A stretch of DNA of 14,455 bases, from IMG/VR virus record IMGVR_UViG_2537561689_000014, one strand, 5' to 3'. This document shows, piece after piece, positions 1-12,154 of this stretch; within the stretch, counting starts at the first letter, position 1, and every line of letters starts with the position of its first letter. The notes below the pieces were generated by a model that saw only the letters and a program-made list of their open reading frames with translations, did no database searches and was not told the DNA's origin. Made by a program: the position numbers and the translations under genes. Source of the stretch: a virus (taxonomy: Duplodnaviria > Heunggongvirae > Uroviricota > Caudoviricetes).

Positions 1-1284
1 TTACTTCTTCGCCTCTGCAACCACTTTACTACCCACGCCGCGGTTATTGTATTCCCACATGCGGTTGTAGTTAGTGTCATTCAGATTGCGCTGTATTTCG
101 TCGTTATCATCTACGCTGCCGGTATTACCCGCAAACGGACGATTAGAGATCACCGCATCGGCCCACGGTTTAGCCGTGTTAAAACCTTCGTTGATGGCGC
201 TATCACGGATCACCACCTGACCGTTGGTATTGGCATCAACATCCAGCGAGCGGCCCAGTTGCGCCACACCATCACCGAAAGCATTGAAACGGCTGTTTAC
301 GGCGAGGAAACCGTAGTAAATGTTGGACAGCGTAGCCGGTGCAAACACATACGCTTCTTGCTGAGTACGTGAGTTCACCACGCGGAATTCGGTGTTATCG
401 AACACCACTGCGCCGCGACCAGAAACGATATCCACATCCCCTTCAATGTAGCTGTTGGTCACCAGCGTACGCGGCTGACGGTTGGTTTCCAGACGGTTCT
501 GCACACCGCTGTTGGTGACAAAGAAGGTGTTCTGACGACCGAGAATGTTAACGTTGTTAATCTGTACCTGGTCACCATCAGTACGCAGTGCCACCGCCGG
601 ATGGTTACCTGCATCTACGCTATCGCCCAGCGTGTTTTCGATGGTCAGATTTTGCAGTTGCAGGCCATTGTTTTGTGACCAGAAGACCGCAGAGCAGAGA
701 ACACCGATACTGTCGCTGCGTTTGCTCTGGCAGCTATCGTACATATACCACGCTGGTTTACCTGGCATATATTTGCCGCGCGGGTTGACGTCGTGACGCC
801 AGTCGGCAGGGCTCATGCCACCATCAAGGGAAAGCCCAATCTTCACATCAATCGGTTTTTCACCTGTACCGTACAGAGTAATTCCACCCGGAGCGGCAGG
901 GACATATACCGTTCCCTGATACTCACCAGGCATCACGGCAATATACTGGCGCTTGTTGGTACGCTTGATAATTGCCGCATCTACCGCCGCCTGAATCGTG
1001 GTATGCGTTACACCTTGAGTGCCCGCCGGGCCGACAACAAAGTCAGGTTGCGCAGGCAGGGTAATCGGGGAAGGATTCCACGCTGCAGCACCTGGTGTCA
1101 GGGATGCAAAATAGTGTTGAGCATCGAAATTCTGCGCTTCTTTTGCCGACAGAATCGGGCGAGAAGAGGTACCAGGCGCGGTTTGATCAGAAGGACGTTG
1201 ATCGGGCGGGGTTGAGCTACAGGCGGTCAGCGTCACGCCAAAAGCCAATGCCAGCGCCAGACGGGAAACTGAAAATGTGTTCAC
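1..1284 (-). CDS. ybhC: YbhC-like pectinesterase-family lipoprotein (putative acyl-CoA thioesterase); host gene flanking attB-lambda
   Basis: Complete 427-aa ORF with stop at 1-3 and start at 1284. N-terminus MNTFSVSRLALALAFGVTLTACSS has a lipoprotein signal peptide with lipobox LTAC. Lies immediately beside the lambda att core, as ybhC does in E. coli. Confidence 0.85.
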   Translation of the reverse strand: MNTFSVSRLALALAFGVTLTACSSTPPDQRPSDQTAPGTSSRPILSAKEAQNFDAQHYFASLTPGAAAWNPSPITLPAQPDFVVGPAGTQGVTHTTIQAAVDAAIIKRTNKRQYIAVMPGEYQGTVYVPAAPGGITLYGTGEKPIDVKIGLSLDGGMSPADWRHDVNPRGKYMPGKPAWYMYDSCQSKRSDSIGVLCSAVFWSQNNGLQLQNLTIENTLGDSVDAGNHPAVALRTDGDQVQINNVNILGRQNTFFVTNSGVQNRLETNRQPRTLVTNSYIEGDVDIVSGRGAVVFDNTEFRVVNSRTQQEAYVFAPATLSNIYYGFLAVNSRFNAFGDGVAQLGRSLDVDANTNGQVVIRDSAINEGFNTAKPWADAVISNRPFAGNTGSVDDNDEIQRNLNDTNYNRMWEYNNRGVGSKVVAEAKK

Positions 1285-1330: not shown

Positions 1331-1418
1331 GCTTTTTTATACTAAGTTGGCATTATAAAAAAGCATTGCTTATCAATTTGTTGCAACGAACAGGTCACTA
1401 TCAGTCAAAATAAAATCA
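1331..1418. other. attL (BOP') of a lambda-type integration site: 15-bp core 1331-1345, phage P' arm 1346-1418
   Basis: Exact lambda core GCTTTTTTATACTAA at 1331-1345. Host-type sequence lies to the left (gaagcctgc). To the right is the lambda P' arm with repeated CAGTCAAAAT-type Int arm sites (tcactatcagtcaaaataaaatcattatttgatttc), running straight into the int 3' end. Confidence 0.9.
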
Positions 1419-2489
1419 TTATTTGATTTCAATTTTGTCCCACTCCCTGCCTCTGTCATCACGATACTGTGATGCCATGGTGTCCGACTTATGCCCGAGA
1501 AGATGTTGAGCAAACTTATCGCTTATCTGCTTCTCATAGAGTCTTGCAGACAAACTGCGCAACTCGTGAAAGGTAGGCGGATCCCCTTCGAAGGAAAGAC
1601 CTGATGCTTTTCGTGCGCGCATAAAATACCTTGATACTGTGCCGGATGAAAGCGGTTCGCGACGAGTAGATGCAATTATGGTTTCTCCGCCAAGAATCTC
1701 TTTGCATTTATCAAGTGTTTCCTTCATTGATATTCCGAGAGCATCAACATGCAATGCTGTTGGGATGGCAATTTTTACGCCTGTTTTGCTTTGCTCGACA
1801 TAAAGATATCCATCTACGATATCAGACCACTTCATTTCGCATAAATCACCAACTCGTTGCCCGGTAACAACAGCCAGTTCCATTGCAAGTCTGAGCCAAC
1901 ATGGTGATGATTCTGCTGCTTGATAAATTTTCAGGTATTCGTCAGCCGTAAGTCTTGATCTCCTTACCTCTGATTTTGCTGCGCGAGTGGCAGCGACAGG
2001 GTTTGTTGTTATATGGCCTTCAGCTATTGCCTCTCGGAATGCATCGCTCAGTGTTGATCTGATTAACTTGGCTGACGCCGCCTTGCCCTCGTCTATGTAT
2101 CCATTGAGCATTGCCGCAATTTCTTTTGTGGTGATGTCTTCAAGTGGAGCATCAGGCAGACCCCTCCTTATTGCTTTAATTTTGCTCATGTAATTTATGA
2201 GTGTCTTCTGCTTGATTCCTCTGCTGGCCAGGATTTTTTCGTAGCGATCAAGCCATGAATGTAACGTAACGGAATTATCACTGTTGATTCTCGCTGTCAG
2301 AGGCTTGTGTTTGTGTCCTGAAAATAACTCAATGTTGGCCTGTATAGCTTCAGTGATTGCGATTCGCCTGTCTCGGCCTAATCCAAACTCTTTACCCGTC
2401 CTTGGGTCCCTGTAGCAGTAATATCCATTGTTTCTTATATAAAGGTTAGGGGGTAAATCCCGGCGCTCATGACTTCGCCTTCTTCCCAT
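1419..2489 (-). CDS. int: Lambda-type integrase (tyrosine recombinase)
   Basis: 356-aa ORF MGRRRSHERRDLPPNLYIRNNGYYCYRDPRTGKEF... ending ...RDDRGREWDKIEIK, recognised as phage lambda Int. Adjacent to attL and overlaps the xis 3' end. Confidence 0.97.
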   Translation of the reverse strand: MGRRRSHERRDLPPNLYIRNNGYYCYRDPRTGKEFGLGRDRRIAITEAIQANIELFSGHKHKPLTARINSDNSVTLHSWLDRYEKILASRGIKQKTLINYMSKIKAIRRGLPDAPLEDITTKEIAAMLNGYIDEGKAASAKLIRSTLSDAFREAIAEGHITTNPVAATRAAKSEVRRSRLTADEYLKIYQAAESSPCWLRLAMELAVVTGQRVGDLCEMKWSDIVDGYLYVEQSKTGVKIAIPTALHVDALGISMKETLDKCKEILGGETIIASTRREPLSSGTVSRYFMRARKASGLSFEGDPPTFHELRSLSARLYEKQISDKFAQHLLGHKSDTMASQYRDDRGREWDKIEIK

Positions 2490-2685
2490 TTCTGATCCTC
2501 TTCAAAAGGCTACCTGTTACTGGTCGATTTAAGTCAACCTTTACCGCTGATTCGTGGAACAGATATTCTCTTCCATCCTTAACCGGAGGAGGGAATATCC
2601 TGCATTCGCGCACCCATCGACGAACTGTTTCAAGGCTTCTTGGGCGTCGCTGGCGAGCGTTCCACTCCTGAAGTGTCAAGTACAT
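2467..2685 (-). CDS. xis: Excisionase
   Basis: 72-aa ORF MYLTLQEWNARQRRPRSLETVRRWVRECRIFPPPVKDGREYLFHESAVKVDLNRPVTGSLLKRIRNGKKAKS, recognised as lambda Xis. Overlaps the int start by 23 nt, as in lambda. Confidence 0.95.
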   Translation of the reverse strand: MYLTLQEWNARQRRPRSLETVRRWVRECRIFPPPVKDGREYLFHESAVKVDLNRPVTGSLLKRIRNGKKAKS

Positions 2686-2724
2686 CGCAAAGTCTCCGCA
2701 ATTACACGCAAGAAAAAACCGCCA

Positions 2725-2892
2725 TCAGGCGGCTTGGTGTTCTTTCAGTTCTTCAATTCGAATATTGGTTACGTCTGCATGTGCTATCTGCGCCCACAGC
2801 ATCCAGTGGTCATAGCAGTCGCTGATGTTCTCGGCTTCGATAACTCTGTTGAATGGTTCTCCATTCCATTCACCTGTGACTCGGAAGTGCAT
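2725..2892 (-). CDS. Hypothetical 55-aa protein (lambda orf55-like, immediately upstream of xis)
   Basis: Below the 60-aa cut-off of the ORF track; translated by hand as MHFRVTGEWNGEPFNRVIEAENISDCYDHWMLWAQIAHADVTNIRIEELKEHQAA. GGAG Shine-Dalgarno 8 nt upstream. Same size and position relative to xis as the small ORF I recall in lambda. Confidence 0.6.
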   Translation of the reverse strand: MHFRVTGEWNGEPFNRVIEAENISDCYDHWMLWAQIAHADVTNIRIEELKEHQAA

Positions 2893-2929
2893 TTATCATC
2901 TCCATAAAACAAAACCCGCCGTAGCGAGT

Positions 2930-2962
2930 TCAGATAAAAGAAATCCTCGTCAGTGCGAGGAT
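2930..2962 (-). terminator. Possible intrinsic terminator on the minus strand
   Basis: 7-bp inverted repeat ATCCTCG/CGAGGAT (2943-2962, loop tcagtg) followed on the minus strand by TTCTTTTAT. Confidence 0.3.
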
Positions 2963-3134
2963 GCTGTTCATTGCTGCTATACACTTTTTTGCTCTCAACG
3001 TAAGCGGTAGCCCATTCTGTTGGGTTGGTGCAGTTGCTTTTAGGAAATGCTATTTACCCCTTAAATGTCGGCTGAAAGAGCTAAAATCCATGCAAAAAAT
3101 TTACGCAATTTTGTGTATTATTGTGCAGTAAGTA

Positions 3135-3737
3135 ATGAGCTATTTTCTGCGCAAAAAATGGATGGTAAATTTGTCCGGGTCAGGAAAAATTTTATGGGCG
3201 CTAAACATGAAAAAAGATTCGTATCCTTATTTGATTTGCATGACAGTTTCAGGGCTGATCTTTATTTTCCTTTTCTTCTGGTGGCGGGCAGATATCTACA
3301 GGGTCACGTTTCTTAATCAGAGTATATCCCACTATTACATTCTGTTTAGCATGGGAATAGCTTTTCTGTTATCTCTGTTTTGGGTTAAGAAGGGGATAGT
3401 AAAACAAAGCGGCTGGAAGAGTCTGTCAGCATACCTTAAGGTTTATGCAGGGATGTGCATATTTGCTGGATTTTTTCTGATTATACCCCTTACGACACTA
3501 ACTTATTTTTTGCCTGGAGAGACATCGTCTTATGTTGCACCGTATCGGTATACTTCCGGTAGTTCAAAAAGTTGTTCTGGAGCTGAGGTGGATGACCCCG
3601 ATCTACATGAGAATATTCGCATTTGCTATCCGTATGGCAATTATGAGTACGATAATATTATCTATGTTGAAAAGAAAATTAATATATTAGGTGCGGTAGT
3701 GACATATGCACAGACCGCGCGTGATGATACTGAATGA
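3135..3737 (+). CDS. Hypothetical integral membrane protein: three predicted transmembrane helices plus a C-terminal domain of about 75 aa with two Cys; AT-rich accessory gene
   Basis: 200-aa ORF on the strand opposite the phage early-left genes. Hydrophobic segments YLICMTVSGLIFIFLFFWW, YYILFSMGIAFLLSLFWV and VYAGMCIFAGFFLIIPLTTLTYFL. Start is ambiguous: ATG at 3135, 3162 or 3207, none with a strong Shine-Dalgarno. Visibly AT-rich compared with flanking phage genes. Confidence 0.6.
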   Translation: MSYFLRKKWMVNLSGSGKILWALNMKKDSYPYLICMTVSGLIFIFLFFWWRADIYRVTFLNQSISHYYILFSMGIAFLLSLFWVKKGIVKQSGWKSLSAYLKVYAGMCIFAGFFLIIPLTTLTYFLPGETSSYVAPYRYTSGSSKSCSGAEVDDPDLHENIRICYPYGNYEYDNIIYVEKKINILGAVVTYAQTARDDTE

Positions 3738-3771
3738 TATAGTATATAGCGGGCAAGTTTTAGTTAATTTA

Positions 3772-3809
3772 TCGAGGTAATATAATTTACCTCGACTCGT
3801 TTGTTCTGG
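3772..3809 (+). terminator. Putative intrinsic terminator downstream of the membrane-protein gene
   Basis: Perfect 9-bp inverted repeat TCGAGGTAA / TTACCTCGA (loop tataat) at 3772-3795, followed by the T-rich ctcgtttgttctgg. Sits 35 nt after the stop codon at 3735-3737. Confidence 0.4.
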
Positions 3810-3947
3810 TATTAATATTTCGCTTTACGACCGATTTTTATCTGATGATATCATGCGGTTTTCATATACTGACTTACTGTCTTTTCTCCGTTAGCGATTT
3901 TCTCCTGCTCAGCGATGATTTTATCTTTGGCTTCTAGTTAATTTCGC

Positions 3948-4169
3948 TCACTTCGAACCTCTCTGTTTACTGATAAGCTCCAGATCTTGCTGGCAACTGG
4001 CACAAGTCCGACAACCCTGAACGGCCAGTCGTCTTCGTTCATCTATCGGATCGCCACACTCACAACAATGAGTGGCAGATATAGCCTGGTGGTTCAGGCG
4101 GCGCATTTTTATTGCTGTGTTGCGCTGTAATTCTTCAATTTCTGATGCTGAATCAATTATGTCTGCCAT
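3948..4169 (-). CDS. TraR/DksA-family C4 zinc-finger protein
   Basis: 73-aa ORF MADIIDSASEIEELQRNTAIKMRRLNHQAISATHCCECGDPIDERRRLAVQGCRTCASCQQDLELISKQRGSK with paired CxxC motifs (CCEC ... CRTC) near the C-terminus, typical of phage TraR-like proteins. Confidence 0.8.
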   Translation of the reverse strand: MADIIDSASEIEELQRNTAIKMRRLNHQAISATHCCECGDPIDERRRLAVQGCRTCASCQQDLELISKQRGSK

Positions 4170-4221
4170 CTTTCATTAATCCCTGAATTGTTGGTTAATA
4201 CGCTTGAGGGTGAATGCGAAT

Positions 4222-4246
4222 AATAAAAAAGGAGCCTGTAGCTCCC
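4222..4246 (-). terminator. Intrinsic terminator on the minus strand between the 71-aa orf and the TraR-like gene
   Basis: Hairpin GGAGC-ctgta-GCTCC at 4231-4245; on the minus strand it is followed by a T6 tract (plus-strand aaaaaa at 4225-4230). Confidence 0.5.
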
Positions 4247-4267
4247 TGATGATTTTGCTTTTCATGT

Positions 4268-4483
4268 TCACCGTTCCTTAAAGACGCCGTTCAACATGCC
4301 GATCGCCAGGCTTAAATGAGTCGGTGTGAATCCCATCAGCGTTACCGTTTCGCGGTGCTTCTTTAGTACGCTACGGCAAATGTCATCGACGTTTTTATCC
4401 GGAAACTGCTGTCTGGCTTTTTTGATTTCAGAATTAGCCTGACGGGCAATGCTGCGAAGGGCGTTTTCTTGCTGAGGTGTCAT
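4268..4483 (-). CDS. Hypothetical small phage protein (position of lambda orf61)
   Basis: ORF-track frame 4268-4549. The likely start is the internal Met at 4483, giving the 71-aa MTPQQENALRSIARQANSEIKKARQQFPDKNVDDICRSVLKKHRETVTLMGFTPTHLSLAIGMLNGVFKER; the upstream ATG at 4549 has no Shine-Dalgarno. Confidence 0.55.
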   Translation of the reverse strand: MTPQQENALRSIARQANSEIKKARQQFPDKNVDDICRSVLKKHRETVTLMGFTPTHLSLAIGMLNGVFKER

Positions 4484-4559
4484 TGAACAAGCCCCATGTC
4501 GGCAAGCATAAGCACACAGAATATGAAGCCCGCTGCCAGAAAAATGCATTCAGTGGTTG

Positions 4560-4751
4560 TCATACCTGGTCTCTCTCATCTGCTTCTGCTTTCGCCACCA
4601 TCATTTCCAGCTTTTGTGAAAGGGATGCGGCTAACGTATGAAATTCTTCGTCTGTTTCTACTGGTATTGGCACAAACCTGACTCCAATTTGAGCGAGGCT
4701 ATGTGCCATCTCGATACTCGTTCTTAACTCAACGGGAGATGCTTTGTGCAT
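4560..4751 (-). CDS. Lambda orf63-like small protein
   Basis: 63-aa [66 protein letters not shown]. Length and 28-nt overlap with the next orf match the orf63/orf60a arrangement upstream of exo in lambda as I recall it. Confidence 0.65.
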   Translation of the reverse strand: MHKASPVELRTSIEMAHSLAQIGVRFVPIPVETDEEFHTLAASLSQKLEMMVAKAEADERDQV

Positions 4752-4906
4752 ACAGCTCCCCGTTTATTATTTATCTCCTCAGCCAGCCGCTGTGCTTTCA
4801 GGGGATTTCTGATAACAGAAAGGCCGGGAAATACCCAGCCTCGCTTTGTAACGGAGTAGACGAAAGTGATCGCACCTACCCGGATATTATCGTGAGGATG
4901 CTTCAT
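4724..4906 (-). CDS. Lambda orf60a-like small protein
   Basis: 60-aa ORF from the third codon of the track ORF ([19 protein letters not shown]...). Its start overlaps the exo stop by 4 nt. Confidence 0.6.
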
Positions 4907-5583
4907 CGCCATTGCTCCCCAAATACAAAACCAATTTCAGCCAGTGCCTCGTCCATTTTTTCGATGAACTCCGGCACCATCTCGTCAAAACTCGCCATGT
5001 ACTTTTCATCCCGCTCAACCACGACATAATGCAGGCCTTCACGCTTCATACGCGGGTCATAGTTGGCAAAGTACCAGGCATCTTTTCGCGTCACCCACAT
5101 GCTGTACTGCACCTGGGCCATGTAAGCCGACTTTATGGCCTCGAAACCACCGAGCCGGAACTTCATGAAATCCCGGGAGGTAAACGGGCATTTCAGCTCA
5201 AGGCCATTGCCGTCACTGCATAAACCATCGGGAGAGCAGGCGGTACGCATACTTTCGTCGCGATAGATGATCGGGGATTCAGTAACATTCACGCCGGAAG
5301 TGAATTCAAACAGAGTTCTGGCGTCGTTCTCGTACTGTTTTCCCCATGCCAGCGCCTTAGCATTAACTTCCGGAGCCACACCGGTGCAAACCTCAGCCAG
5401 CAGGGTGTGGAAGTAGGACATTTTCATGTCAGGCCACTTTTTTCCGGAGCGGGGTTTTGCTATCACATTGTGAACTTCTGAAGCGGTGATGACGCCGAGC
5501 CGTAATTTGTGCCACGCATCATCCCCCTGTTCGACAGCTCTCACGTCGATTCCGGTACGCTGCAGGATAATGTCCGGTGTCAT
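4903..5583 (-). CDS. exo: Lambda exonuclease (Red alpha)
   Basis: 226-aa [46 protein letters not shown]..., recognised as lambda Exo. Translationally coupled to bet (overlap at 5580-5583). Confidence 0.97.
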
Positions 5584-6365
5584 GCAGCCACCTTCTGCTC
5601 AGTGGCTTTCTGTTTCAGGAATCCAAGAGCTTTCACTGCTTCGGCCTGTGTCAGTTCTGACGATGCGCGAATGTCGCGGCGAAATATCTGGGAACAGAGC
5701 GGCAATAAGTCGTCATCCCATGTTTTATCCAGGGCAATCAGCAGAGTGTTAATCTCCTGCATGGTTTCATCGTTAACCGGAGTGATGTCGCGTTCCGGCT
5801 GACGTTCTGCAGTGTATGCGGTATTTTCGACAATGCGCTCGGCTTCATCCTTGTCATAGATACCCGCAAATCCGAAGGCGAGACGGGCACACTGAATCAT
5901 GGCTTTATGCCGTAACATCCGTTTGGGATGCGACTGCCACGGTCCGGTGATTTCTCTGCCTTCGCGGGTTTTGAATGGTTCGCGGCGGCATTCATCCATC
6001 CACTCGGTAACGCAGATCGGATGATTGCGGTCCTTGCGGTAAATCCGGCATGTGCAGGATTCATTGTCCTGCTCAAAGTCCATGCCATCAAACTGCTGGT
6101 TTTCATTGATGATACGGGACCAGCCATCAACGCCCACCACCGGAACGATGCCGTTCTGCTTGTCAGGGAAGGCGTAAATTTCTTTCGTCCACGGATTAAG
6201 GCCGTACTGGTTGGCGACGATCAGCAATGCGATGAACTGCGCATCGCTGGCATCACCTTTAAATGCCGTCTGGCGAAGAGTGGTGATCAGTTCCTGTGGG
6301 TCGACAGAATCCATGCCGACGCGTTCAGCCAGCTTCCCAGCCAGCGTTGCGAGTGCTGTACTCAT
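5580..6365 (-). CDS. bet: Red beta single-strand annealing protein
   Basis: 261-aa [69 protein letters not shown]..., recognised as lambda Beta. Confidence 0.97.
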
Positions 6366-6370
6366 CCGTT

Positions 6371-6787
6371 TTATACCTCTGAATCAATATCAACCTGGTG
6401 GTGAGCAATGGTTTCAACCATGTACCGGATGTGTTCTGCCATGCGCTCCTGAAACTCAACATCGTCATCAAACGCACGGGTAATGGCTTTTTTGCTGGCC
6501 CCGTGGCGTTGTAAATGATCGATGCAGAGTGATTCAAACAGGTGCTGGGGCAGACCTTTTTCCATGTCGTCTGCCAGTTCTGCCTCTTTCTCTTCACGGG
6601 CGATCTGCTGGTAGTGACGCGTCCAGCTCTGAGCCTCAAGACGATCCTGAATGTAATAAGCGTTCATGGCTGAACTCCTGAAATAGCTGTGAAAATATCG
6701 CCCGCGAAATGCCGGGCTGATTAGGAAAACAGGAAAGGGGGTTAGTGAATGCTTTTGCTTGATCTCAGTTTCAGTATTAATATCCAT
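6371..6787 (-). CDS. gam: Gam, RecBCD nuclease inhibitor
   Basis: 138-aa [58 protein letters not shown]..., recognised as lambda Gam. Confidence 0.95.
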
Positions 6788-6885
6788 TTTTTATAAGCGT
6801 CGACGGCCTCACGAAACATCTTTTCATCGCCAATAAAAGTGGCGATAGTGAATTTAGTCTGGATAGCCATAAGTGTTTGATCCAT
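6742..6885 (-). CDS. kil: Kil (host cell-division inhibitor)
   Basis: 47-aa [50 protein letters not shown], the C-terminal part of the 89-aa track ORF. Overlaps the gam start, as in lambda. Confidence 0.8.
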
Positions 6886-7018
6886 TTTTTGGGACTCCTG
6901 GCTGATTAAGTATGTCGATAAGGCGTTTCCATCCGTCACGTAATTTACGGGTGATTCGTTCAAGTAAAGATTCGGAAGGGCAGCCAGCAACAGGCCACCC
7001 TGCAATGGCATATTGCAT
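6854..7018 (-). CDS. cIII: CIII (FtsH inhibitor that stabilises CII-type activators)
   Basis: Translated by hand, since it is below the track cut-off: [54 protein letters not shown] (54 aa), recognised as lambda CIII. Start ATG at 7018, stop at 6854-6856. Confidence 0.85.
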   Translation of the reverse strand: MQYAIAGWPVAGCPSESLLERITRKLRDGWKRLIDILNQPGVPKNGSNTYGYPD

Positions 7019-7090
7019 GGTGTGCTCCTTATTTATACATAACGAAAAACGCCTCGAGTGAAGCGTTATTGGTATGCGGTAACGCCGCGC

Positions 7091-7459
7091 TCAGGCGGCT
7101 TTGATAGTCATATCATCTGAATCAAATATTCCTGATGTATCGATATCGGTAATTCTTATTCCTTCGCTACCATCCATTGGAGGCCATCCTTCCTGACCAT
7201 TTCCATCATTCCAGTCGAACTCACACACAACACCATATGCATTTAAGTCGCTTGAAATTGCTATAAGCAGAGCATGTTGCGCCAGCATGATTAATACAGC
7301 ATTTAATACAGAGCCGTGTTTATTGAGTCGGTATTCAGAGTCTGACCAGAAATTATTAATCTGGTGAAGTTTTTCCTCTGTCATTACGTCATGGTCGATT
7401 TCAATTTCTATTGATGCTTTCCAGTCGTAATCAATGATATATTTTTTGATGTTTGACAT
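7091..7459 (-). CDS. ea10: Ea10 (lambda early protein)
   Basis: 122-aa ORF MSNIKKYIIDYDWKASIEIEIDHDVMTEEKLHQINNFWSDSEYRLNKHGSVLNAVLIMLAQH..., recognised as lambda Ea10. Confidence 0.85.
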   Translation of the reverse strand: MSNIKKYIIDYDWKASIEIEIDHDVMTEEKLHQINNFWSDSEYRLNKHGSVLNAVLIMLAQHALLIAISSDLNAYGVVCEFDWNDGNGQEGWPPMDGSEGIRITDIDTSGIFDSDDMTIKAA

Positions 7460-7479
7460 CTATTCATATCCTCACAGAT

Positions 7480-7505
7480 AAAAAATCGCCCTCACATTGG
7501 AGGGC
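7480..7505 (-). terminator. Intrinsic terminator on the minus strand upstream of ea10 (tL2-like position)
   Basis: Hairpin GCCCTC-acattg-GAGGGC at 7488-7505; on the minus strand it is followed by ATTTTTT. Confidence 0.45.
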
Positions 7506-7719
7506 AAAGAAGATTTCCAATAATCAGAACAAGTCGGCTCCTGTTTAGTTACGAGCGACATTGCTCAGTGTATTCACTCGTTGGAATGAATACACAGTGC
7601 AGTGTTTATTAGTATGCCTGTCTTTTAACCACATCAGGCTCGGTGGTTCTCGTGTACCCCTACAGCGAGAAATCGGATAAACTCTATTCACCCCTACAGA
7701 GAGCAAAAGAGAAACGCCG

Positions 7720-8301
7720 ATGAACAACTCATGGTGGCAGGAACTAATGCATTTTTTCCTGCAAGGAATGACACTTAAACAGTTGATTCATATGCTAATC
7801 ATCCTGATCATATTGATTATTGTTATGCCTGTAAGCGTAAAAGAATGGATAAACCTGCATAATCCAGAAATCCTTCCTCATTACTGGATGTATTACATCC
7901 TGTTGTTTTGCGTTAGCTATGTGCTTAACGGCGTTGTTAATTCCGCTTATCACGCTGTGACTGAAAGAATTGAGATATTCGCTGCTCAGAAGCGCAAATC
8001 TAAAGAAGAGAAATACGTGCAAGATTTGTTTGATTCGTTAACTCTTGGAGAAAGAGCGTATTTGGCATTCGCTGTAGCCGCTAATAACCAGCTAAAGACA
8101 GAAAAGGGAAGCCCTGAAGCAATCTCATTGCTCGAAAAAGGGCTTCTTATTCGGGTACCTTCTGCTACTGGATATCCTGAAATCGACCGTTTTGTTATCC
8201 CGGAACGCTATAGAAATGAGTGCTACATTAGGTTTGCTGGGAAGAAAGACAGTCTTATGGATGAACTTATCGCTCAGGATAAGCATGGCAAAAACAAGTA
8301 A
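7720..8301 (+). CDS. sieB: SieB-like superinfection exclusion protein (membrane protein)
   Basis: 193-aa ORF MNNSWWQELMHFFLQGMTLKQLIHMLIILIILIIVMPVSVKEWINLHNPEILPHYWMYYILLFCVSYVLNGVV... with N-terminal hydrophobic helices. On the strand opposite to, and convergent with, the N-type gene, as sieB is in lambda. Confidence 0.8.
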   Translation: MNNSWWQELMHFFLQGMTLKQLIHMLIILIILIIVMPVSVKEWINLHNPEILPHYWMYYILLFCVSYVLNGVVNSAYHAVTERIEIFAAQKRKSKEEKYVQDLFDSLTLGERAYLAFAVAANNQLKTEKGSPEAISLLEKGLLIRVPSATGYPEIDRFVIPERYRNECYIRFAGKKDSLMDELIAQDKHGKNK

Positions 8302-8317
8302 TTAGCAAATTAATTTA

Positions 8318-8590
8318 TCATCTCGCCGTCAGTTGTTTTGATTTCCGGTAGCCTGCCGCGTAAATGGCTACGTTTGGCAGGCAAATACTTCCACTGCATT
8401 CATCTGCCTTCTTGCAGCGAAGGCTTCCGAGTGATGCTGCTTTGTCTGCTCTGACGCAACCAGAGAGCTTTAGCGCAATTTTTCGCGCCAGTCGCTGTTC
8501 TTGCATTGCCTGCTCACGTTGAGCCTGTCTGCGTGCTCTGCGGCGATTTCTGGCGTTATTGTCAGCCAGATATGTAATGACTACTGCCAT
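8318..8590 (-). CDS. N-family transcription antitermination protein (not lambda N)
   Basis: 90-aa ORF MAVVITYLADNNARNRRRARRQAQREQAMQEQRLARK... with an N-terminal arginine-rich motif. First gene downstream of the pL-like promoter and nutL. GGAGGT Shine-Dalgarno upstream of the start. Confidence 0.7.
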   Translation of the reverse strand: MAVVITYLADNNARNRRRARRQAQREQAMQEQRLARKIALKLSGCVRADKAASLGSLRCKKADECSGSICLPNVAIYAAGYRKSKQLTAR

Positions 8591-8697
8591 GTTGACCTCC
8601 GATGATTAACTTTGGCGGTGACGCGCCGGGTGCTTATCTTCCGGTTGCCGTCGTGCAGCTGCACTTCACGTCACCCCAAAGCCAACTACTCTTTGGT

Positions 8698-8738
8698 TCC
8701 CGCATTTCGGCGGGACAATCCCATCAATGTTAAAGAGC
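8698..8738 (-). promoter_or_regulatory. nutL: boxA (8728-8738) and boxB hairpin (8698-8715), read on the minus strand
   Basis: Minus-strand GCTCTTTAACA (boxA-like) followed 12 nt later by the hairpin TCCCGC-CGAAAT-GCGGGA. The same 18-nt hairpin recurs at nutR (9852-9869). Confidence 0.6.
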
Positions 8739-8775
8739 CTGCCAATCTGTTCCGTTTGGCTACCAGCGTCCTGCC

Positions 8776-8868
8776 GATGACTTAAATTTAAGATTTCTTT
8801 AACTATTGGTCAAGAGTGTTTTTGAAGAAAACTTAAATTTTGTTGCGAAGCTTAAGTTTTGCTTTGAT
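8776..8868 (-). promoter_or_regulatory. pL/oL region: leftward early promoter with P22-type operator sites
   Basis: Minus-strand -35 TTGACC (8808-8813), 17-nt spacer, -10 TAAATT (8785-8790). Operator-like pseudo-palindromes with TTAAG half-sites: ATTTAAGatttCTTTAAC at 8786-8803 and GCTTAAG...CTTTGAT at 8850-8868. Confidence 0.55.
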
Positions 8869-8880
8869 TTTTAAAGGAAA

Positions 8881-8902
8881 GAAAAAAAGGGGCGAATGCC
8901 CC
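8881..8902 (-). terminator. Intrinsic terminator immediately after the repressor gene
   Basis: Minus-strand GGGGC-attc-GCCCC followed by TTTTTTTC (plus-strand gaaaaaaaggggcgaatgcccc), abutting the repressor stop at 8903. Confidence 0.6.
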
Positions 8903-9553
8903 TTATGGAAGGTTTGCTATTTTTGCATCGACAACTACACCGATGATTTTGCAGTTCCCGTTGATCTCAATCATCGGATATTGTGGGTTAAGTGGTTTTA
9001 GAAACCTTCTGCCAGCATCAATAACTAACTTCTTGAAAGTTGCCTCGTTTTCTCCTTCGAGCTTTGCCACTACCAGCTTCCCATTACGAGGTTCTACTTC
9101 AGGATCGACTAGTATTATCATCCCTTCCGGGATGCTAAGACCGGCTGGAGCCGTCATCGAATCACCCTTTACGTCCAGCCAAAACGAATCTTCTGAACAA
9201 TCTACGGTTGTATCGTACCAGTTATCTATTGCACGCTTATGATATGGCTCTACAGCTTCCATCCAACATCCTGCGCTTACCCAACTAATTAGAGGATACG
9301 AACCTCTTGGATCATGCCTGCTGTGATAGGCAATGTTTGAAAGACTATCTTCTCCTTTCAACAAGTAATCAGGGGAGCACTGTAAAGCCTTGGCTAAAGC
9401 CAATAGGTTTTCGCCATTGGGCTCAGTTTCAGAACGCTCCCATTGGGAAATAGCAACATTAGACACGCCAACCATCTTGCCGAGGGCAGCCTGCCTAATC
9501 TTAAGTTCTTTTCTGCGAGCGCGAATACGCTCACCCATCAGTTGTGTATTCAT
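8903..9553 (-). CDS. c2: Prophage repressor, P22 C2-type (HTH N-terminal domain plus S24/LexA-like autocleavage domain)
   Basis: 216-aa ORF MNTQLMGERIRARRKELKIRQAALGKMVGVSNVAISQWERSETEPNGENLLALAKALQCSPDYLLKG... with the GDSM serine motif and a downstream Lys (VVAKLEG). Near-identical over its length to the P22 c2 repressor as I recall it. Confidence 0.95.
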   Translation of the reverse strand: MNTQLMGERIRARRKELKIRQAALGKMVGVSNVAISQWERSETEPNGENLLALAKALQCSPDYLLKGEDSLSNIAYHSRHDPRGSYPLISWVSAGCWMEAVEPYHKRAIDNWYDTTVDCSEDSFWLDVKGDSMTAPAGLSIPEGMIILVDPEVEPRNGKLVVAKLEGENEATFKKLVIDAGRRFLKPLNPQYPMIEINGNCKIIGVVVDAKIANLP

Positions 9554-9633
9554 AGTTAAGACATCTTAAATAAACTTGACTTAAGATTCCTTTGATAGAT
9601 AATTTAAGTGTTCTTTAATTTCGGGGCGAGTCT
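9554..9633. promoter_or_regulatory. oR/pR/pRM region with three 18-bp operators
   Basis: Three pseudo-palindromes of the form ANTNAAG-N4-CTTNANT: AGTTAAGacatCTTAAAT (9554-9571), ACTTAAGattcCTTTGAT (9579-9596) and ATTTAAGtgttCTTTAAT (9602-9619), with 23-25 bp centre spacing. pR -35 TTGACT (9576-9581) and -10 GATAAT (9598-9603) point toward cro. Confidence 0.75.
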
Positions 9634-9819
9634 ATGTACAAGAAAGATGTTATCGACCACTTCGGAACCCAGCGTGCGGTAGCTAAAGCGTTAGGCATTA
9701 GCGATGCAGCAGTCTCTCAGTGGAAGGAAGTCATCCCAGAGAAAGACGCCTATCGACTGGAAGTCGTTACAGCTGGCGCCCTGAAGTATCAAGAAAGTGC
9801 TTATCGCAAAGCGGCATAA
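9634..9819 (+). CDS. cro: Cro (P22-type)
   Basis: 61-aa ORF MYKKDVIDHFGTQRAVAKALGISDAAVSQWKEVIPEKDAYRLEVVTAGALKYQESAYRKAA with a helix-turn-helix. First gene of the rightward operon. Confidence 0.9.
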   Translation: MYKKDVIDHFGTQRAVAKALGISDAAVSQWKEVIPEKDAYRLEVVTAGALKYQESAYRKAA

Positions 9820-9826
9820 GCAAATT

Positions 9827-9870
9827 GCTCTTTAACAGTCATGGTCCTTATTCCCGCCGAAATGCGGGAA
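9827..9870 (+). promoter_or_regulatory. nutR: boxA (9827-9837) and boxB hairpin (9852-9869)
   Basis: GCTCTTTAACA followed 14 nt later by TCCCGC-CGAAAT-GCGGGA, the same boxA and boxB sequences as nutL. Confidence 0.6.
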
Positions 9871-9927
9871 TACAACGCGCATCAGTTGGTGCGTATAACT
9901 TCTTATTTGTTAAGGAAATACTTACAT

Positions 9928-10206
9928 ATGCAACTTACAAGTACTCGCAAGAAAGCGAATGCAATCACAAGCAACATCCTGAATCGAATTGCTGTACGTG
10001 GTCAGCGAAAGGTTGCTGATGCATTAGGGATTAATGAATCGCAAATTTCGCGATGGAAAGACAGCTTTATCCCAAAGATGGCCATGCTTCTGGCTGTGCT
10101 GGAGTGGGGTGTTGAAGACGAGGAATTAGCAAAGCTAGCAAAGAAAGTAGCCATGGTGCTGACAAAAGAAAAGCCTCAAGACTGCTGCAACAGTTTTGAG
10201 GCCTGA
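9928..10206 (+). CDS. c1: CII-family transcriptional activator (P22 C1-type)
   Basis: 92-aa ORF from the internal Met of the 121-aa track ORF: MQLTSTRKKANAITSNILNRIAVRGQRKVADALGINESQISRWKDSFIPKMAMLLAVLEWGVEDEELAKLAKKVAMVLTKEKPQDCCNSFEA. AAGGAAA Shine-Dalgarno upstream. Shares the ISRWK ... PKxxMLLAVLEWGV core with lambda CII. Confidence 0.9.
   Translation: MQLTSTRKKANAITSNILNRIAVRGQRKVADALGINESQISRWKDSFIPKMAMLLAVLEWGVEDEELAKLAKKVAMVLTKEKPQDCCNSFEA
9961..9974 (-). promoter_or_regulatory. Candidate activator-dependent pRE -35 element (TTGC-N6-TTGC on the minus strand)
   Basis: Plus-strand GCAAtcacaaGCAA is TTGCN6TTGC on the minus strand, inside the 5' part of c1 and oriented toward cro and the repressor gene, as pRE is in lambda. 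Confidence 0.3.
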
Positions 10207-10240
10207 TGTAGAAAGACTGGATCAATCCACAGGAGTCATT

Positions 10241-11140
10241 ATGACAAATACAGCAAAAATACTCAACTTCGGCAGAGGTAACTTTGCCGGACAGGAGCGT
10301 AATGTGGCAGATCTCGATGATGGTTACGCCAGACTATCAAATATGCTGCTTGAGGCTTATTCAGGCGCAGATCTGACCAAGCGACAGTTTAAAGTGCTGC
10401 TTGCCATTCTGCGTAAAACCTATGGGTGGAATAAACCAATGGACAGAATCACCGATTCTCAACTTAGCGAGATTACAAAGTTACCTGTCAAACGGTGCAA
10501 TGAAGCCAAGTTAGAACTCGTCAGAATGAATATTATCAAGCAGCAAGGCGGCATGTTTGGACCAAATAAAAACATCTCAGAATGGTGTATCCCTCAAAAC
10601 GAGGGAAAATCCCCTAAAACGAGGGATAAAACATCCCTCAAATTGGGGGATTGCTATCCCTCAAAACAGGGGGACACAAAAGACACTATTACAAAAGAAA
10701 AAAGAAAAGATTATTCGTCCGAGAATTCTGGCGAATCCTCTGACCAGCCAGAAAACGATCTTTCTGTGGTTAAACCGGATGCTGCAATTCAGAGCGGCAG
10801 TAAGTGGGGAACAGCAGAAGACCTGACCGCCGCAGAGTGGATGTTTGACATGGTGAAGACCATCGCGCCATCAGCCAGAAAACCGAATTTTGCTGGGTGG
10901 GCTAACGATATCCGCCTGATGCGTGAACGTGACGGACGTAACCACCGCGATATGTGTGTGCTTTTCCGCTGGGCCTGCCAGGACAACTTCTGGTCCGGTA
11001 ACGTGCTGAGTCCGGCCAAACTCCGCGACAAGTGGACCCAGCTCGAAATCAACCGTAACAAGCAACAGGCTGGCGTGACAGCCGGAAAACCAAAACTCGA
11101 CCTGACAAACACTGACTGGATTTACGGGGTGGATCTATGA
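10241..11140 (+). CDS. O: Replication initiator O (lambda-type)
   Basis: 299-aa ORF from the internal Met of the track ORF (MTNTAKILNFGRGNFAGQERNVADLDDGYARLSNMLLEAYSG...), recognised as lambda O. AGGAG Shine-Dalgarno upstream; ori iterons lie inside the gene. Confidence 0.95.
   Translation: MTNTAKILNFGRGNFAGQERNVADLDDGYARLSNMLLEAYSGADLTKRQFKVLLAILRKTYGWNKPMDRITDSQLSEITKLPVKRCNEAKLELVRMNIIKQQGGMFGPNKNISEWCIPQNEGKSPKTRDKTSLKLGDCYPSKQGDTKDTITKEKRKDYSSENSGESSDQPENDLSVVKPDAAIQSGSKWGTAEDLTAAEWMFDMVKTIAPSARKPNFAGWANDIRLMRERDGRNHRDMCVLFRWACQDNFWSGNVLSPAKLRDKWTQLEINRNKQQAGVTAGKPKLDLTNTDWIYGVDL
10590..10716. repeat. Replication origin (lambda-type): four iterons plus an AT-rich region inside O
   Basis: Four imperfect repeats: TCCCTCAAAACGAGGGA (10590-10606), TCCCCTAAAACGAGGGA (10610-10626), TCCCTCAAATTGGGGGA (10634-10650) and TCCCTCAAAACAGGGGGA (10657-10674), followed by the A-rich tract aaaagacactattacaaaagaaaaaagaaaaga. 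Confidence 0.85.
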
Positions 11141-11838
11141 AAAACATCGCCGCACAGATGGTTAACTTTGACCGTGAGCAGATGCGTCGGATCGCCAACA
11201 ACATGCCGGAACAGTACGACGAAAAGCCACAGGTACAGCAGGTAGCGCAGATCATCAACGGTGTGTTCAGCCAGTTACTGGCAACTTTCCCGGCGAGTCT
11301 GGCTAACCGTGACCAGAACGAACTGAACGAAATCCGCCGCCAGTGGGTTCTGGCTTTCCGGGAAAACGGGATCACCACAATGGAACAGGTTAACGCAGGA
11401 ATGCGCGTAGCCCGTCGGCAGAACCGACCATTCCTGCCATCACCCGGGCAGTTTGTTGCATGGTGCCGGGAAGAAGCATCCGTTATCGCCGGACTGCCAA
11501 ACGTCAGCGAGCTGGTTGATATGGTTTACGAGTATTGCCGGAAGCGAGGCCTGTATCCGGATGCGGAGTCTTATCCGTGGAAATCAAACGCGCACTACTG
11601 GCTGGTTACCAACCTGTATCAGAACATGCGGGCCAATGCGCTTACTGATGCGGAATTACGCCGTAAGGCCGCAGATGAGCTTGTCCATATGACTGCGAGA
11701 ATTAACCGTGGTGAGGCGATCCCTGAACCAGTAAAACAACTTCCTGTCATGGGCGGTAGACCTCTAAATCGTGCACAGGCTCTGGCGAAGATCGCAGAAA
11801 TTAAAGCTAAGTTCGGACTGAAAGGAGCAAGTGTATGA
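11137..11838 (+). CDS. P: Replication protein P (DnaB helicase loader)
   Basis: 233-aa ORF MKNIAAQMVNFDREQMRRIANNMPEQYDEKPQVQQVAQIINGVFSQ..., recognised as lambda P. Its start overlaps the O stop. Confidence 0.95.
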   Translation: MKNIAAQMVNFDREQMRRIANNMPEQYDEKPQVQQVAQIINGVFSQLLATFPASLANRDQNELNEIRRQWVLAFRENGITTMEQVNAGMRVARRQNRPFLPSPGQFVAWCREEASVIAGLPNVSELVDMVYEYCRKRGLYPDAESYPWKSNAHYWLVTNLYQNMRANALTDAELRRKAADELVHMTARINRGEAIPEPVKQLPVMGGRPLNRAQALAKIAEIKAKFGLKGASV

Positions 11839-12008
11839 TGGGCAAAGAGGCAATTATTCATTACCTGGGGACGCACAAGAGCTTCTGTGCGCCGGACGTT
11901 GCTGCGACAACAGGTGTGACATTAACCAGCATAAATCAGGCTGCGGCAAAAATGGCGCGGGCAGGAATCCTGGTCATTGATGGTAAGGTCTGGCGAACGT
12001 TTGTTTAA
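11835..12008 (+). pseudogene. ren: Truncated ren (57 codons instead of about 96)
   Basis: ATG overlaps the P stop (ATGA), as in lambda. MMGKEAIIHYLGTHKSFCAPDVAATTGVTLTSINQAAAKMARAGILVIDGKVWRTFV* resembles lambda Ren up to about residue 55, then hits a stop where unrelated AT-rich DNA begins. Confidence 0.65.
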
Positions 12009-12154
12009 CGGTTAGCTACTCAGGATGATAGGGCGGGGCAAGTGAGTATGAAGCGGATTTTCAGGAATGCCATCAGAGTTTGGAAATAAAGTGGGTTTTC
12101 TAGTGGCAAGAGACTTGATAATATTTAGTTCTTTGAATCCAAGGAGATAGGGTT

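What the first reader, a model, noticed from the sequence alone, without database searches (positions are those of the whole stretch)
2893..4267. Lambda ea8.5/ea22 segment replaced by a different accessory module
int, xis and the 55-aa orf on one side, and the small orfs, exo and bet on the other, match lambda gene lengths and overlaps. Between them lambda carries ea8.5 and ea22 on the leftward strand (from memory of the reference annotation). Here that interval holds a convergent pair instead: the plus-strand membrane-protein gene and a minus-strand TraR/DksA-type zinc-finger gene, separated by AT-rich DNA with a perfect 9-bp hairpin. This is a mosaic junction where cargo has been swapped.
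Basis: partly seen in the sequence, partly recalled or inferred. Interest (0 to 1): 0.55.

Follow-up and report, generated by a model that had tools for sequence, protein, structure and literature searches.

The report
Phage-434-type gene cassette replacing lambda ea8.5/ea22
In this lambda-like prophage the two lambda genes ea8.5 and ea22 are replaced by a 973-base cassette carrying one backwards-facing membrane-protein gene of unknown function. This is the arrangement already sequenced in phage 434 and present in about one in six complete E. coli genomes, so the mosaic is real but ordinary.

Summary

- **Breakpoints.** Alignment to lambda puts them at window 2962/2963 and 3935/3936, not about 2900 and 4270. 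The 973-bp cassette (2963-3935, 38% GC) replaces lambda 29356-30379, which is ea8.5 plus ea22 minus its first 16 nt.
- **TraR/DksA gene (3948-4169, minus strand).** It is not cargo. It is lambda's own orf73 (71/73 residues identical), which the RefSeq lambda record does not annotate.
- **The cassette.** It holds one plus-strand gene, probably starting at 3207 (176 aa). The protein has three membrane helices and a small C-terminal beta-barrel with two near-invariant cysteines. A 9-bp hairpin follows the gene.
- **Known occurrences.** The cassette is 98-99.9% identical in phages 434, mEp332 and 2B8, and sits in 906 of 5426 complete E. coli genomes. Lambda's own block is in 156.
- **The slot is polymorphic.** I found 11 cargo types among 52 related viral contigs.
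- **Cargo function.** It has no Pfam, NCBIfam, PADLOC or structural match. Homologues lie in the gpA-gpQ defence hotspot of P2-like prophages, but also in ordinary chromosomal sites. A prophage-expressed envelope or exclusion role is inference only.

The parts
2725..2892 (-). orf55 (lambda lambdap35 homologue). Conserved backbone to the left of the slot.
   Evidence: The ORF is listed. It matches phrog_676 at E 5.5e-40. It lies inside the 96.8% lambda-identical block 2401-2962.
2912..2931 (-). Terminator-like hairpin just upstream of the orf55 ribosome-binding site, shared with lambda.
   Evidence: Found by the scan. It folds at -11.0 kcal/mol, z = -3.4. It is present in every cargo type.
2943..2962 (-). 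tL4 hairpin terminator (7-bp stem followed by TTTCTTTTAT). The left breakpoint lies at its pL-proximal edge, 2962/2963.
   Evidence: Found by the scan. The 434 record M60848 annotates 't-L4' at 2292-2322, which maps to window 2936-2966. Identity to lambda ends at 2962. Every cargo type ends with a hairpin at this position.
2963..3935 (+). The swapped cassette ('434-type'), 973 bp and 38.2% GC. It replaces lambda 29356-30379.
   Evidence: No lambda homology. It is 98.4-99.9% identical over its full length to phages 434, 2B8 and mEp332. It is present in 906/5426 E. coli genomes. GC is 38.2% against 46.4-47.5% in the flanks.
3111..3128 (+). Two TTGTG(C/T) direct repeats 10 bp apart, at -96 and -86 from the ATG. 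Possible regulator site. The 434 record annotates it as a CII-consensus site.
   Evidence: 434 annotation. The repeats are conserved at the same distance in Salmonella P2-like copies, with a third repeat in L009.
3163..3171 (+). TGGTAAATT, a candidate extended -10 promoter element about 40 nt upstream of the start codon.
   Evidence: A TG(A/G)TAA(A/T/G)TT motif sits at the same distance in the lambdoid, Salmonella P2-like and Cedecea chromosomal copies. The 100 nt upstream are 60% identical between the window and the Salmonella copies, against 24-36% further upstream. The consensus scan did not call it, so this is inferred.
3207..3737 (+). Cargo gene: a 176-aa inner-membrane protein with three TM helices and a C-terminal beta-barrel domain. 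The longest ORF starts at 3135 (200 aa, the RefSeq call), but all distant homologues start at the MKK corresponding to 3207.
   Evidence: Alignments. Hydropathy and loop charges. AF2 mean pLDDT 87 for the whole protein and 90 for the C-domain. dN/dS is about 0.1-0.3 with synonymous sites near saturation.
3772..3795 (+). Perfect 9-bp stem, 6-nt loop, then CTCGTTTGTT. Likely the intrinsic terminator of the cargo gene.
3934..3951 (-). Remnant of ea22: GTG AGC GAA ATT AAC followed by TAG. The right breakpoint is 3935/3936, inside codon 6.
   Evidence: Base-by-base comparison with lambda and with ten other cargo types, all of which continue as Ea22-family ORFs.
3948..4169 (-). orf73, a TraR/DksA-type zinc-finger protein. 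Lambda backbone, not cargo.
   Evidence: 71/73 residues identical to the translation of lambda 30392-30613. Pfam PF01258. phrog_54. TIGR02419 scores 55.6 bits, below its 59.7 cut-off.
4229..4247 (-). Terminator-like hairpin between the orf61-like ORF and orf73, shared with lambda.
   Evidence: -10.2 kcal/mol, z = -2.5. It lies inside the lambda-identical block.
4268..4483 (-). orf61-family ORF (72 aa). Conserved backbone to the right.
   Evidence: phrog_303 at E 4.7e-36. Annotated in 434, mEp332 and RefSeq E. coli.

Best explanation
The stretch between orf73 and orf55, at the pL-distal end of the lambdoid exo-xis region, is a recombinational cargo slot bounded by conserved sequence. On the right the boundary is orf73 plus the first bases of ea22. 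On the left it is the tL4 terminator plus orf55.

In this prophage the slot holds the '434-type' cassette (window 2963-3935) in place of lambda's ea8.5-ea22. Every other cargo type I surveyed still begins with an Ea22-family reading frame. This one keeps only five ea22 codons followed by a stop. The 434-type therefore looks derived: an ea22-containing ancestor was replaced by a joint inside ea22 codon 6.

The cassette behaves as a self-contained, moron-like unit that faces against the pL operon. It has about 100 nt of conserved upstream DNA with an extended -10-like motif, one gene, and a hairpin terminator.

Inferred, not shown: the gene is transcribed from its own promoter in the repressed prophage, and is opposed by antisense pL read-through during lytic growth. 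Its product sits in the inner membrane with the N-terminus in the cytoplasm and a small, probably disulfide-bonded, beta-barrel in the periplasm. It acts at the envelope, most likely as a superinfection-exclusion or anti-phage factor. I put that function at about 0.35. A host-envelope fitness role is nearly as likely. The confidence given below is for the structural and cassette claim.
For: Breakpoints and identity to lambda.

Identity to phages 434, mEp332 and 2B8 over the full cassette.

Frequency: 906/5426 genomes carry this cassette and 156/5426 carry the full lambda block.

Slot polymorphism: 11 interval types in 52 IMG/VR contigs, with the 434-type in 22 and lambda's ea22+ea8.5 in 7. Other cargo includes a dATP/dGTP pyrophosphohydrolase-DUF551 protein, DUF2513, LysR plus a BTP-family membrane protein, and an LprI-domain protein.

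ea22 remnant and shared terminator boundary.

Cassette autonomy:
- GC is 38.2% against about 47% in the flanks.
- A hairpin follows the gene.
- Homology to the Salmonella P2-like copies starts about 100 nt upstream of the ATG. It is 60% identical there, while synonymous sites are near saturation (pS about 0.7).

Real gene: dN/dS is about 0.1-0.3, with invariant residues and conserved length.

Topology: three hydrophobic segments, loop 2 carries net +5, the C-domain carries net -6 and has two near-invariant Cys.

Accessory-locus context: homologues at 71%, 59% and 56% identity lie between gpA and portal gpQ of P2-like prophages. PMC9122126 describes that locus as the old/tin anti-phage hotspot.
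Against: No direct evidence of expression. The sigma-70 consensus scan found no strong promoter upstream of 3207, and the window copy has no obvious Shine-Dalgarno sequence.

More distant family members in Enterobacter, Klebsiella and Cedecea sit in ordinary chromosomal neighbourhoods. That argues for a general envelope function, not a dedicated anti-phage one.

The hotspot paper itself found activity for only some of the cloned hotspot systems. The direction of the replacement event rests on a five-codon remnant.
Confidence: 0.85

Rival explanations
1. The whole interval 2893-4267 is the swapped module, and it consists of a convergent pair (membrane gene plus TraR/DksA gene) that entered together.
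For: The two genes are convergent and adjacent. RefSeq lambda has no CDS annotated between ea22 and orf61, so the TraR gene looks foreign if one relies on that annotation.
Against: Window 3936-4800, which includes the TraR gene, is 97.2% identical to lambda 30380-31245, and the protein is 71/73 identical to lambda Orf73. Orf73 is a described lambda gene (PMC9239242, PMC8614690). The same orf73 precedes ten other cargo types.
Confidence: 0.02
2. The segment is simply a diverged set of ea8.5/ea22 homologues.
For: It occupies the same position and has a similar length (973 against 1024 bp). Five ea22 codons are retained.
Against: tblastn of Ea8.5 and Ea22 against the window, and blastp against the membrane protein, give only chance-level hits (best E 0.38). 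The only conserved gene is on the opposite strand and is a three-TM membrane protein. The minus-strand ea22 frame stops after five codons.
Confidence: 0.01
3. The plus-strand ORF is not a functional gene. The cassette is AT-rich filler or a decaying remnant.
For: No family or structure match. No strong consensus promoter. Many carriers are defective prophages such as O157 Sp3/CP-933K.
Against: Homologues at 42-78% identity keep the same length, the same start (MKK.SYP) and 15 invariant residues. dN/dS is about 0.1-0.3 while synonymous sites are near saturation. The AF2 model is confident, at pLDDT 87-90. The gene is retained in viable phages 434, mEp332 and 2B8.
Confidence: 0.03
4. The cargo protein is a general envelope or host-physiology factor (lysogenic conversion or stress adaptation), not an anti-phage or exclusion protein.
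For: Family members in Enterobacter, Klebsiella sp. and Cedecea lie among housekeeping genes next to LysR regulators, GGDEF proteins and transporters, with no prophage genes nearby. There is no PADLOC hit. Other cargo in the same lambdoid slot includes non-defence functions, such as LysR plus a BTP-family membrane protein.
Against: The phage-borne copies occupy accessory slots of two unrelated temperate phage families. One of those is a documented anti-phage hotspot.
Confidence: 0.3

Closest known systems
Phage 434 exo-xis region (OL657226 genes CPT_434_35 to CPT_434_37; partial in M60848 with 'ORF-22+' and 't-L4'). Also phages mEp332 (PV340541) and 2B8, and O157:H7 prophage Sp3/CP-933K (ECs_0804).
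   Same: The same 973-bp cassette at 98.4-99.9% identity, with the same flanks (orf55 and tL4 on the left, orf73 on the right) and the same membrane protein at 99-100% identity.
   Different: 434 carries an extra ORF114 between xis and orf55. The window, mEp332 and lambda lack it. So neighbouring cassettes have assorted independently.
Lambda exo-xis region: exo, orf60a, orf63, orf61, orf73, ea22, ea8.5, orf55, xis (PMC8614690, PMC9239242).
   Same: The backbone on both sides is 97% identical, including orf73 and the tL4 hairpin.
   Different: ea8.5 and ea22 are missing, apart from 16 nt of ea22. A single antisense membrane-protein gene takes their place. Lambda's reference orf61 is frameshifted relative to this window.
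Morons of lambdoid phages (Juhala/Hendrix concept; recalled from established literature, not read here).
   Same: A single gene in the opposite orientation to its neighbours, with lower GC, its own terminator, and conserved upstream DNA that travels with the gene into P2-like phages.
   Different: Here the unit replaces resident genes instead of being added between two otherwise adjacent genes. Promoter activity is not demonstrated.
Cargo of the P2-like gpA-gpQ anti-phage hotspot (old/tin locus; PMC9122126).
   Same: Homologues of the cargo protein at 56-71% identity sit in exactly this hotspot in Salmonella and Klebsiella michiganensis P2-like prophages.
   Different: No anti-phage activity is known for this family, and it matches no PADLOC model. 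Other family members are chromosomal and not phage-borne.

Membership tests
Lambda Orf73 / TraR subfamily of DksA/TraR C4 zinc-finger proteins (gene 3948-4169) | Match to the zf-dskA_traR domain above the curated threshold | tested here: met
   PF01258 scores 36.4 bits against a cut-off of 24.9. phrog_54 matches at E 1.8e-25. NCBIfam TIGR02419 scores 55.6 bits, just below its 59.7 cut-off.
Lambda Orf73 / TraR subfamily of DksA/TraR C4 zinc-finger proteins (gene 3948-4169) | Sequence hallmarks listed in PMC8614690: an N-terminal DxxDxA motif, a C4 zinc site, and ExxR(K/L) | tested here: met
   Read from the translation: D3-I-I-D6-S-A8; C35xxC38 and C56xxC59; E44-R-R-R47-L48. The hallmarks are as quoted.
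Lambda Orf73 / TraR subfamily of DksA/TraR C4 zinc-finger proteins (gene 3948-4169) | Orthology with lambda orf73: near-identity, and the same position with its stop overlapping the ea22 start | tested here: met
   71/73 residues identical to the translation of lambda 30392-30613. The GTGA stop/start overlap is retained.
Lambda Orf73 / TraR subfamily of DksA/TraR C4 zinc-finger proteins (gene 3948-4169) | Binds the RNA polymerase secondary channel and reprograms transcription | not testable with these tools
   Shown for lambda Orf73 in PMC9239242. Inferred here from the two-residue difference only.
Ea8.5 / Ea22 (the 'diverged homologue' reading) | Detectable sequence similarity to lambda Ea8.5 or Ea22 | tested here: not met
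   tblastn and blastp give a best E of 0.38 to 0.5, which is chance level. Only the first five ea22 codons remain.
434-type exo-xis cassette | Full-length nucleotide identity with the phage 434 segment between tL4 and orf73 | tested here: met
   100% coverage at 98.4% identity to OL657226/OL657227, 99.9% to mEp332 and 98.5% to 2B8.
Moron (autonomous accessory transcription unit in a prophage) | Its own terminator directly after the gene | tested here: met
   A 9-bp perfect hairpin with a T-rich tail at 3772-3805, -12.9 kcal/mol, z = -3.3. This is a sequence-level prediction only.
Moron (autonomous accessory transcription unit in a prophage) | Its own promoter, active in the lysogen | tested here: inconclusive
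   Conserved upstream 100 nt with a TGnTAAnTT motif at about -40. There is no strong consensus hit and no expression data.
Moron (autonomous accessory transcription unit in a prophage) | Base composition distinct from the neighbours | tested here: met
   38.2% GC against 47.5% and 46.4% in the flanks.
Moron (autonomous accessory transcription unit in a prophage) | Inserted between two genes that are adjacent in related phages | tested here: not met
   No surveyed relative has orf73 directly abutting tL4/orf55. The slot always holds some cargo, so this is a replacement and not a pure insertion.
Known anti-phage defence or superinfection-exclusion proteins | Match to a model of a described defence or exclusion system | tested here: not met
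   No PADLOC hit at E up to 1. No Pfam or NCBIfam family. phrog_1416 has unknown function.
Known anti-phage defence or superinfection-exclusion proteins | Protects cells from phage infection | not testable with these tools
   Needs plating or infection assays. Only the context in the P2 hotspot supports it.

The most novel reading that the evidence does not exclude
The 176-aa protein (three TM helices plus a periplasmic two-cysteine beta-barrel) founds an undescribed family of prophage-encoded envelope-level exclusion or defence factors. The gene moves as a promoter-gene unit between the lambdoid orf73-orf55 slot and the gpA-gpQ hotspot of P2-like phages. It is carried by about 17% of complete E. 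coli genomes, including O157:H7 Sp3/CP-933K.
Probability: 0.3. Interest if true: 0.45.

Novelty: already known. Interest (0 to 1): 0.2.

Why it matters
As a mosaic junction it adds nothing new. Modular exchange in lambdoid phages is textbook, and this exact arrangement is deposited for phage 434 and is common in E. coli.

It has two modest uses:
- It corrects an annotation trap. Lambda orf73 is missing from the RefSeq lambda record, so TraR-type genes next to ea22 can be mistaken for foreign cargo.
- It flags a small, wholly uncharacterised membrane-protein family with no Pfam, NCBIfam or PADLOC model and only 57 clusters at 50% identity among 1.84 billion representatives. The family sits in accessory slots of two unrelated temperate phage lineages and in about one in six complete E. 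coli genomes. It is a cheap candidate for a phage-exclusion or envelope phenotype screen.

Tried and rejected
1. **Gene remnant right of the hairpin.** The minus strand of 3855-3935 reads as a 27-aa ORF tail (EAKDKIIAEQEKIANGEKTVSQYMKTA*). blastn and tblastn against the ten other cargo types, and tblastn against 50,697 phage records, found it only in 434-type phages. There is no support for a remnant.

3. **Sequence profiles.** The profile against PDB sequences gave nothing (best E 0.28). The exhaustive profile search found only same-architecture relatives, and ten distant members have no Pfam domain above threshold.

4. **An independent third context.** The E. coli YY76-1 copy next to a YqaJ/exo pseudogene turned out to be a deletion derivative of the same lambdoid arrangement, with an IS4 insertion.

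6. **A CII-activated promoter.** The 434 record annotates a CII consensus site at window 3111-3124. The repeats are also conserved in P2-like prophage copies. From general knowledge those phages have no CII, so a CII-specific role is unlikely.

7. **RNA genes.** Rfam and tRNA scans found nothing in the interval.
Full report
**What the window is.** It is the left arm of a lambda-like prophage integrated next to ybhC (1-1284, minus strand). The order is int, xis, orf55, the interval in question, three small ORFs, exo, bet, gam, kil, cIII, then the immunity and replication genes. Megablast against phage records finds lambda-family genomes over window 1331-12024.

**Checking the observation.**
- The plus-strand ORF 3135-3737 encodes a protein with three hydrophobic segments.
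- The minus-strand ORF 3948-4169 matches the dksA/traR zinc-finger domain above Pfam's threshold.
- The DNA between the two genes is 34.8% GC.
- A perfect 9-bp inverted repeat sits at 3772-3780/3787-3795. Its RNA hairpin folds at -12.9 kcal/mol, and none of 200 shuffles fold as well.
- Ea8.5 and Ea22 have no detectable counterpart anywhere in the window (best E 0.38).

**Where the breakpoints really are.** blastn against lambda NC_001416 gives two collinear blocks. Window 2401-2962 matches lambda 28794-29355 at 96.8%. Window 3936-4800 matches lambda 30380-31245 at 97.2%. Base-by-base inspection puts the left joint at 2962/2963 and the right joint at 3935/3936. The non-lambda segment is therefore 973 bp (2963-3935). 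It replaces 1024 bp of lambda (29356-30379), which is ea8.5 and all of ea22 except its first 16 nt.

**The TraR/DksA gene is lambda's own.**
- The 73-aa product of 3948-4169 differs at two positions (A49V, Q61E) from the translation of lambda 30392-30613.
- That lambda ORF is orf73. NC_001416 does not annotate it (one search shows no CDS between ea22 and orf61), but other lambda records do.
- It has been characterised as a TraR homologue that reprograms RNA polymerase (PMC9239242). PMC8614690 treats it as one of the conserved exo-xis genes.
- The published hallmarks (DxxDxA, C4 site, ExxRL) are all present in the window protein.

So the 'convergent pair' joins one cargo gene to one backbone gene.

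**The arrangement is already on record and is common.**
- The full interval is 98.4-99.9% identical in phages 434 (OL657226/7), 2B8 and mEp332. There the genes are annotated 'putative membrane protein' and 'zinc finger domain protein' or 'TraR/YbiI family protein'.
- The older 434 record M60848 already covers the left junction. It marks the hairpin at window 2943-2962 as terminator t-L4.
- Of 5426 complete E. coli genomes, 906 carry the cassette at 95% identity or more over at least 80% of its length, always on the chromosome. These include O157:H7 prophage Sp3/CP-933K, where the gene is ECs_0804.
- Only 156 genomes carry the full lambda ea8.5-ea22 block.
- The window is not simply 434. It lacks 434's ORF114 between xis and orf55, as do lambda and mEp332. 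Neighbouring cassettes have assorted independently.

**The slot is polymorphic and has conserved edges.** I fetched 80 IMG/VR loci encoding a near-identical Orf73.
- 32 loci carry the 434-type cassette.
- In 52 loci, orf73 and orf55 or xis lie on one contig. These give 11 distinct interval types of 1.05-3.3 kb. The 434-type accounts for 22 and lambda's ea22+ea8.5 for 7.
- Other cargo includes a dATP/dGTP pyrophosphohydrolase-DUF551 protein, a DUF2513 protein, a LysR regulator with a BTP-family membrane protein, and an LprI-domain secreted protein.
- All ten non-434 types continue after orf73 as an Ea22-family frame (MSEINSQALREAAE...) and diverge at various later points.
- Only the 434-type reads MSEIN-stop.
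- On the other side, every type that reaches orf55 ends with its own hairpin. The hairpin sits directly before the shared sequence TTTATCTGAACTCGCTACGGCG that leads into orf55.

This fits exchange by recombination in the conserved flanks. The five-codon ea22 stub indicates that the 434-type arose by replacement of an ea22-containing ancestor. That last step is inference.

**Anatomy of the cassette.**
- Its GC content is 38.2%, against 46-47.5% in the flanks.
- It has one conserved gene. RefSeq and the longest ORF give 200 aa from 3135. All homologues below about 80% identity are 169-180 aa and begin at the MKK that corresponds to 3207. The likely product is therefore 176 aa.
- Pairwise comparison with Salmonella, Klebsiella and Cedecea homologues gives pN 0.18-0.29 and pS 0.55-0.85, so dN/dS is about 0.1-0.3. 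It is a real gene under purifying selection.
- Hydropathy and the AF2 model (pLDDT 87) agree on three membrane helices at about residues 5-28, 40-61 and 74-103.
- The second loop carries net charge +5. The acidic C-terminal domain carries two cysteines that are invariant or nearly so.
- By the positive-inside rule the N-terminus is cytoplasmic and the C-domain periplasmic.
- Modelled alone (pLDDT 90), the C-domain is a five-stranded small beta-barrel.

**Expression signals (inferred).**
- Nucleotide homology between the window and the Salmonella P2-like copies begins about 100 nt upstream of the ATG.
- Those 100 nt are 60% identical, against 24-36% further upstream.
- A TG(A/G)TAA(A/T/G)TT motif at about -40 recurs in the lambdoid, P2-like and Cedecea copies. 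It looks like an extended -10 element.
- TTGTG(C) repeats lie at -96 and -86.
- The consensus scan did not call a strong sigma-70 promoter here, so the promoter remains a prediction.
- The hairpin at 3772-3795 has a T-rich tail on the plus strand. On the minus strand the tail is T-poor. It is best read as the terminator of the cargo gene and not as a stop for pL transcripts.

**What the cargo protein might do.**
- No library names it. Pfam, NCBIfam and PADLOC give nothing, and phrog_1416 (unknown function) covers only the C-terminal half.
- Structure searches are uninformative.
- The family is small: 57 clusters at 50% identity among 1.84 billion representatives. Members come from Escherichia, Shigella, Salmonella, Klebsiella, Enterobacter, Cedecea, Phytobacter, Proteus, Providencia and Erwinia, plus one Pseudomonas. 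All are 'hypothetical'.
- Context gives the only lead. The Salmonella homologues (71% and 59% identity) and the K. michiganensis homologue (56%) sit in P2-like prophages between replication gene A and portal gene Q. PMC9122126 describes that locus as the old/tin anti-phage hotspot.
- Against this, the Enterobacter, Klebsiella sp. and Cedecea copies are in ordinary chromosomal neighbourhoods.
- Only three isolated phages among 50,697 records carry the gene.

I therefore rate a prophage-expressed envelope-level exclusion or defence role at about 0.3-0.35. A general envelope-fitness role is about equally likely.

**Verdict.** A cargo swap exists, but it is smaller than claimed and does not include the TraR-type gene. 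It is the known phage-434 arrangement, which is the commoner allele in E. coli. Interest is low. The residual value is the uncharacterised membrane-protein family shared between the lambdoid slot and the P2 hotspot.

Noticed in passing
window 4412-4417 (T-run) within ORF 4268-4549, minus strand: The lambda reference has one extra T here. Lambda 'orf61' (61 aa, ending ...KKSQTAVSG*) is therefore a frameshifted version of the ORF that is intact in this window, in 434, in mEp332 and in RefSeq E. coli (72 aa from 4483, or 93 aa from 4549; phrog_303). Lambda's other frame still encodes the conserved C-terminal part.
   Followed up: partly
window 3135-3206: The RefSeq and longest-ORF start for the membrane protein (200 aa) is probably 24 codons too long. 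All homologues below about 80% identity start at the MKK corresponding to 3207.
   Followed up: yes
window 3758-3770 and 3932-3944: A 13-nt direct repeat, TT(T/C)TAGTTAATTT, matching at 12 of 13 positions. One copy lies just after the cargo gene's stop. The other spans the right breakpoint 3935/3936. It could be microhomology from the joining event or a chance match.
   Followed up: no
window 2686-2724, compared with L002 1385-1820: Phage 434 has a 345-nt ORF114 between xis and orf55. The window, mEp332 and lambda lack it. This is a second, independently assorting indel only about 250 bp from the cargo slot.
   Followed up: partly
window 3111-3128; L009 about 5895-5922: TTGTG(C) repeats at 10-bp spacing upstream of the cargo gene. 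The 434 record annotates them as a CII-consensus site. They are conserved in Salmonella P2-like prophage copies, three repeats in L009. This points to a regulator other than lambda CII.
   Followed up: partly
window 7720-8301 (+): A sieB homologue (PF14163, E 1.1e-25). It is another plus-strand membrane-protein gene embedded antisense in the pL operon, a known superinfection-exclusion gene with the same orientation logic as the cargo gene.
   Followed up: no
window 11835-12008 and 12155-12649 (+): In the identical region of strain 120899, ren is annotated as a frameshifted pseudogene. It is followed by a 164-aa protein annotated as T6SS-associated TagO, with a weak VasI Pfam hit (26.7 bits against a cut-off of 26.5). 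That is unusual cargo after gene P.
   Followed up: no
window 13811-14170 (-): A C-terminal fragment of an IS66-family transposase (PF03050, PF13817). It is not present at the corresponding place in strain 120899, where ybcN/ninE follow. The window's source genome therefore differs from that strain downstream of about 12.7 kb.
   Followed up: no
window 6973-7031 (-): Rfam Lambda_thermo (the cIII thermoregulator element), 88.5 bits. It is the only Rfam family at gathering score in the window.
   Followed up: no
L049 (IMG/VR), interval after orf73: One alternative cargo type in the same slot carries a LysR regulator divergent from a BTP-family (PF05232, 'chlorhexidine efflux transporter') membrane protein. 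This is a possible biocide-efflux module on a lambdoid phage.
   Followed up: no
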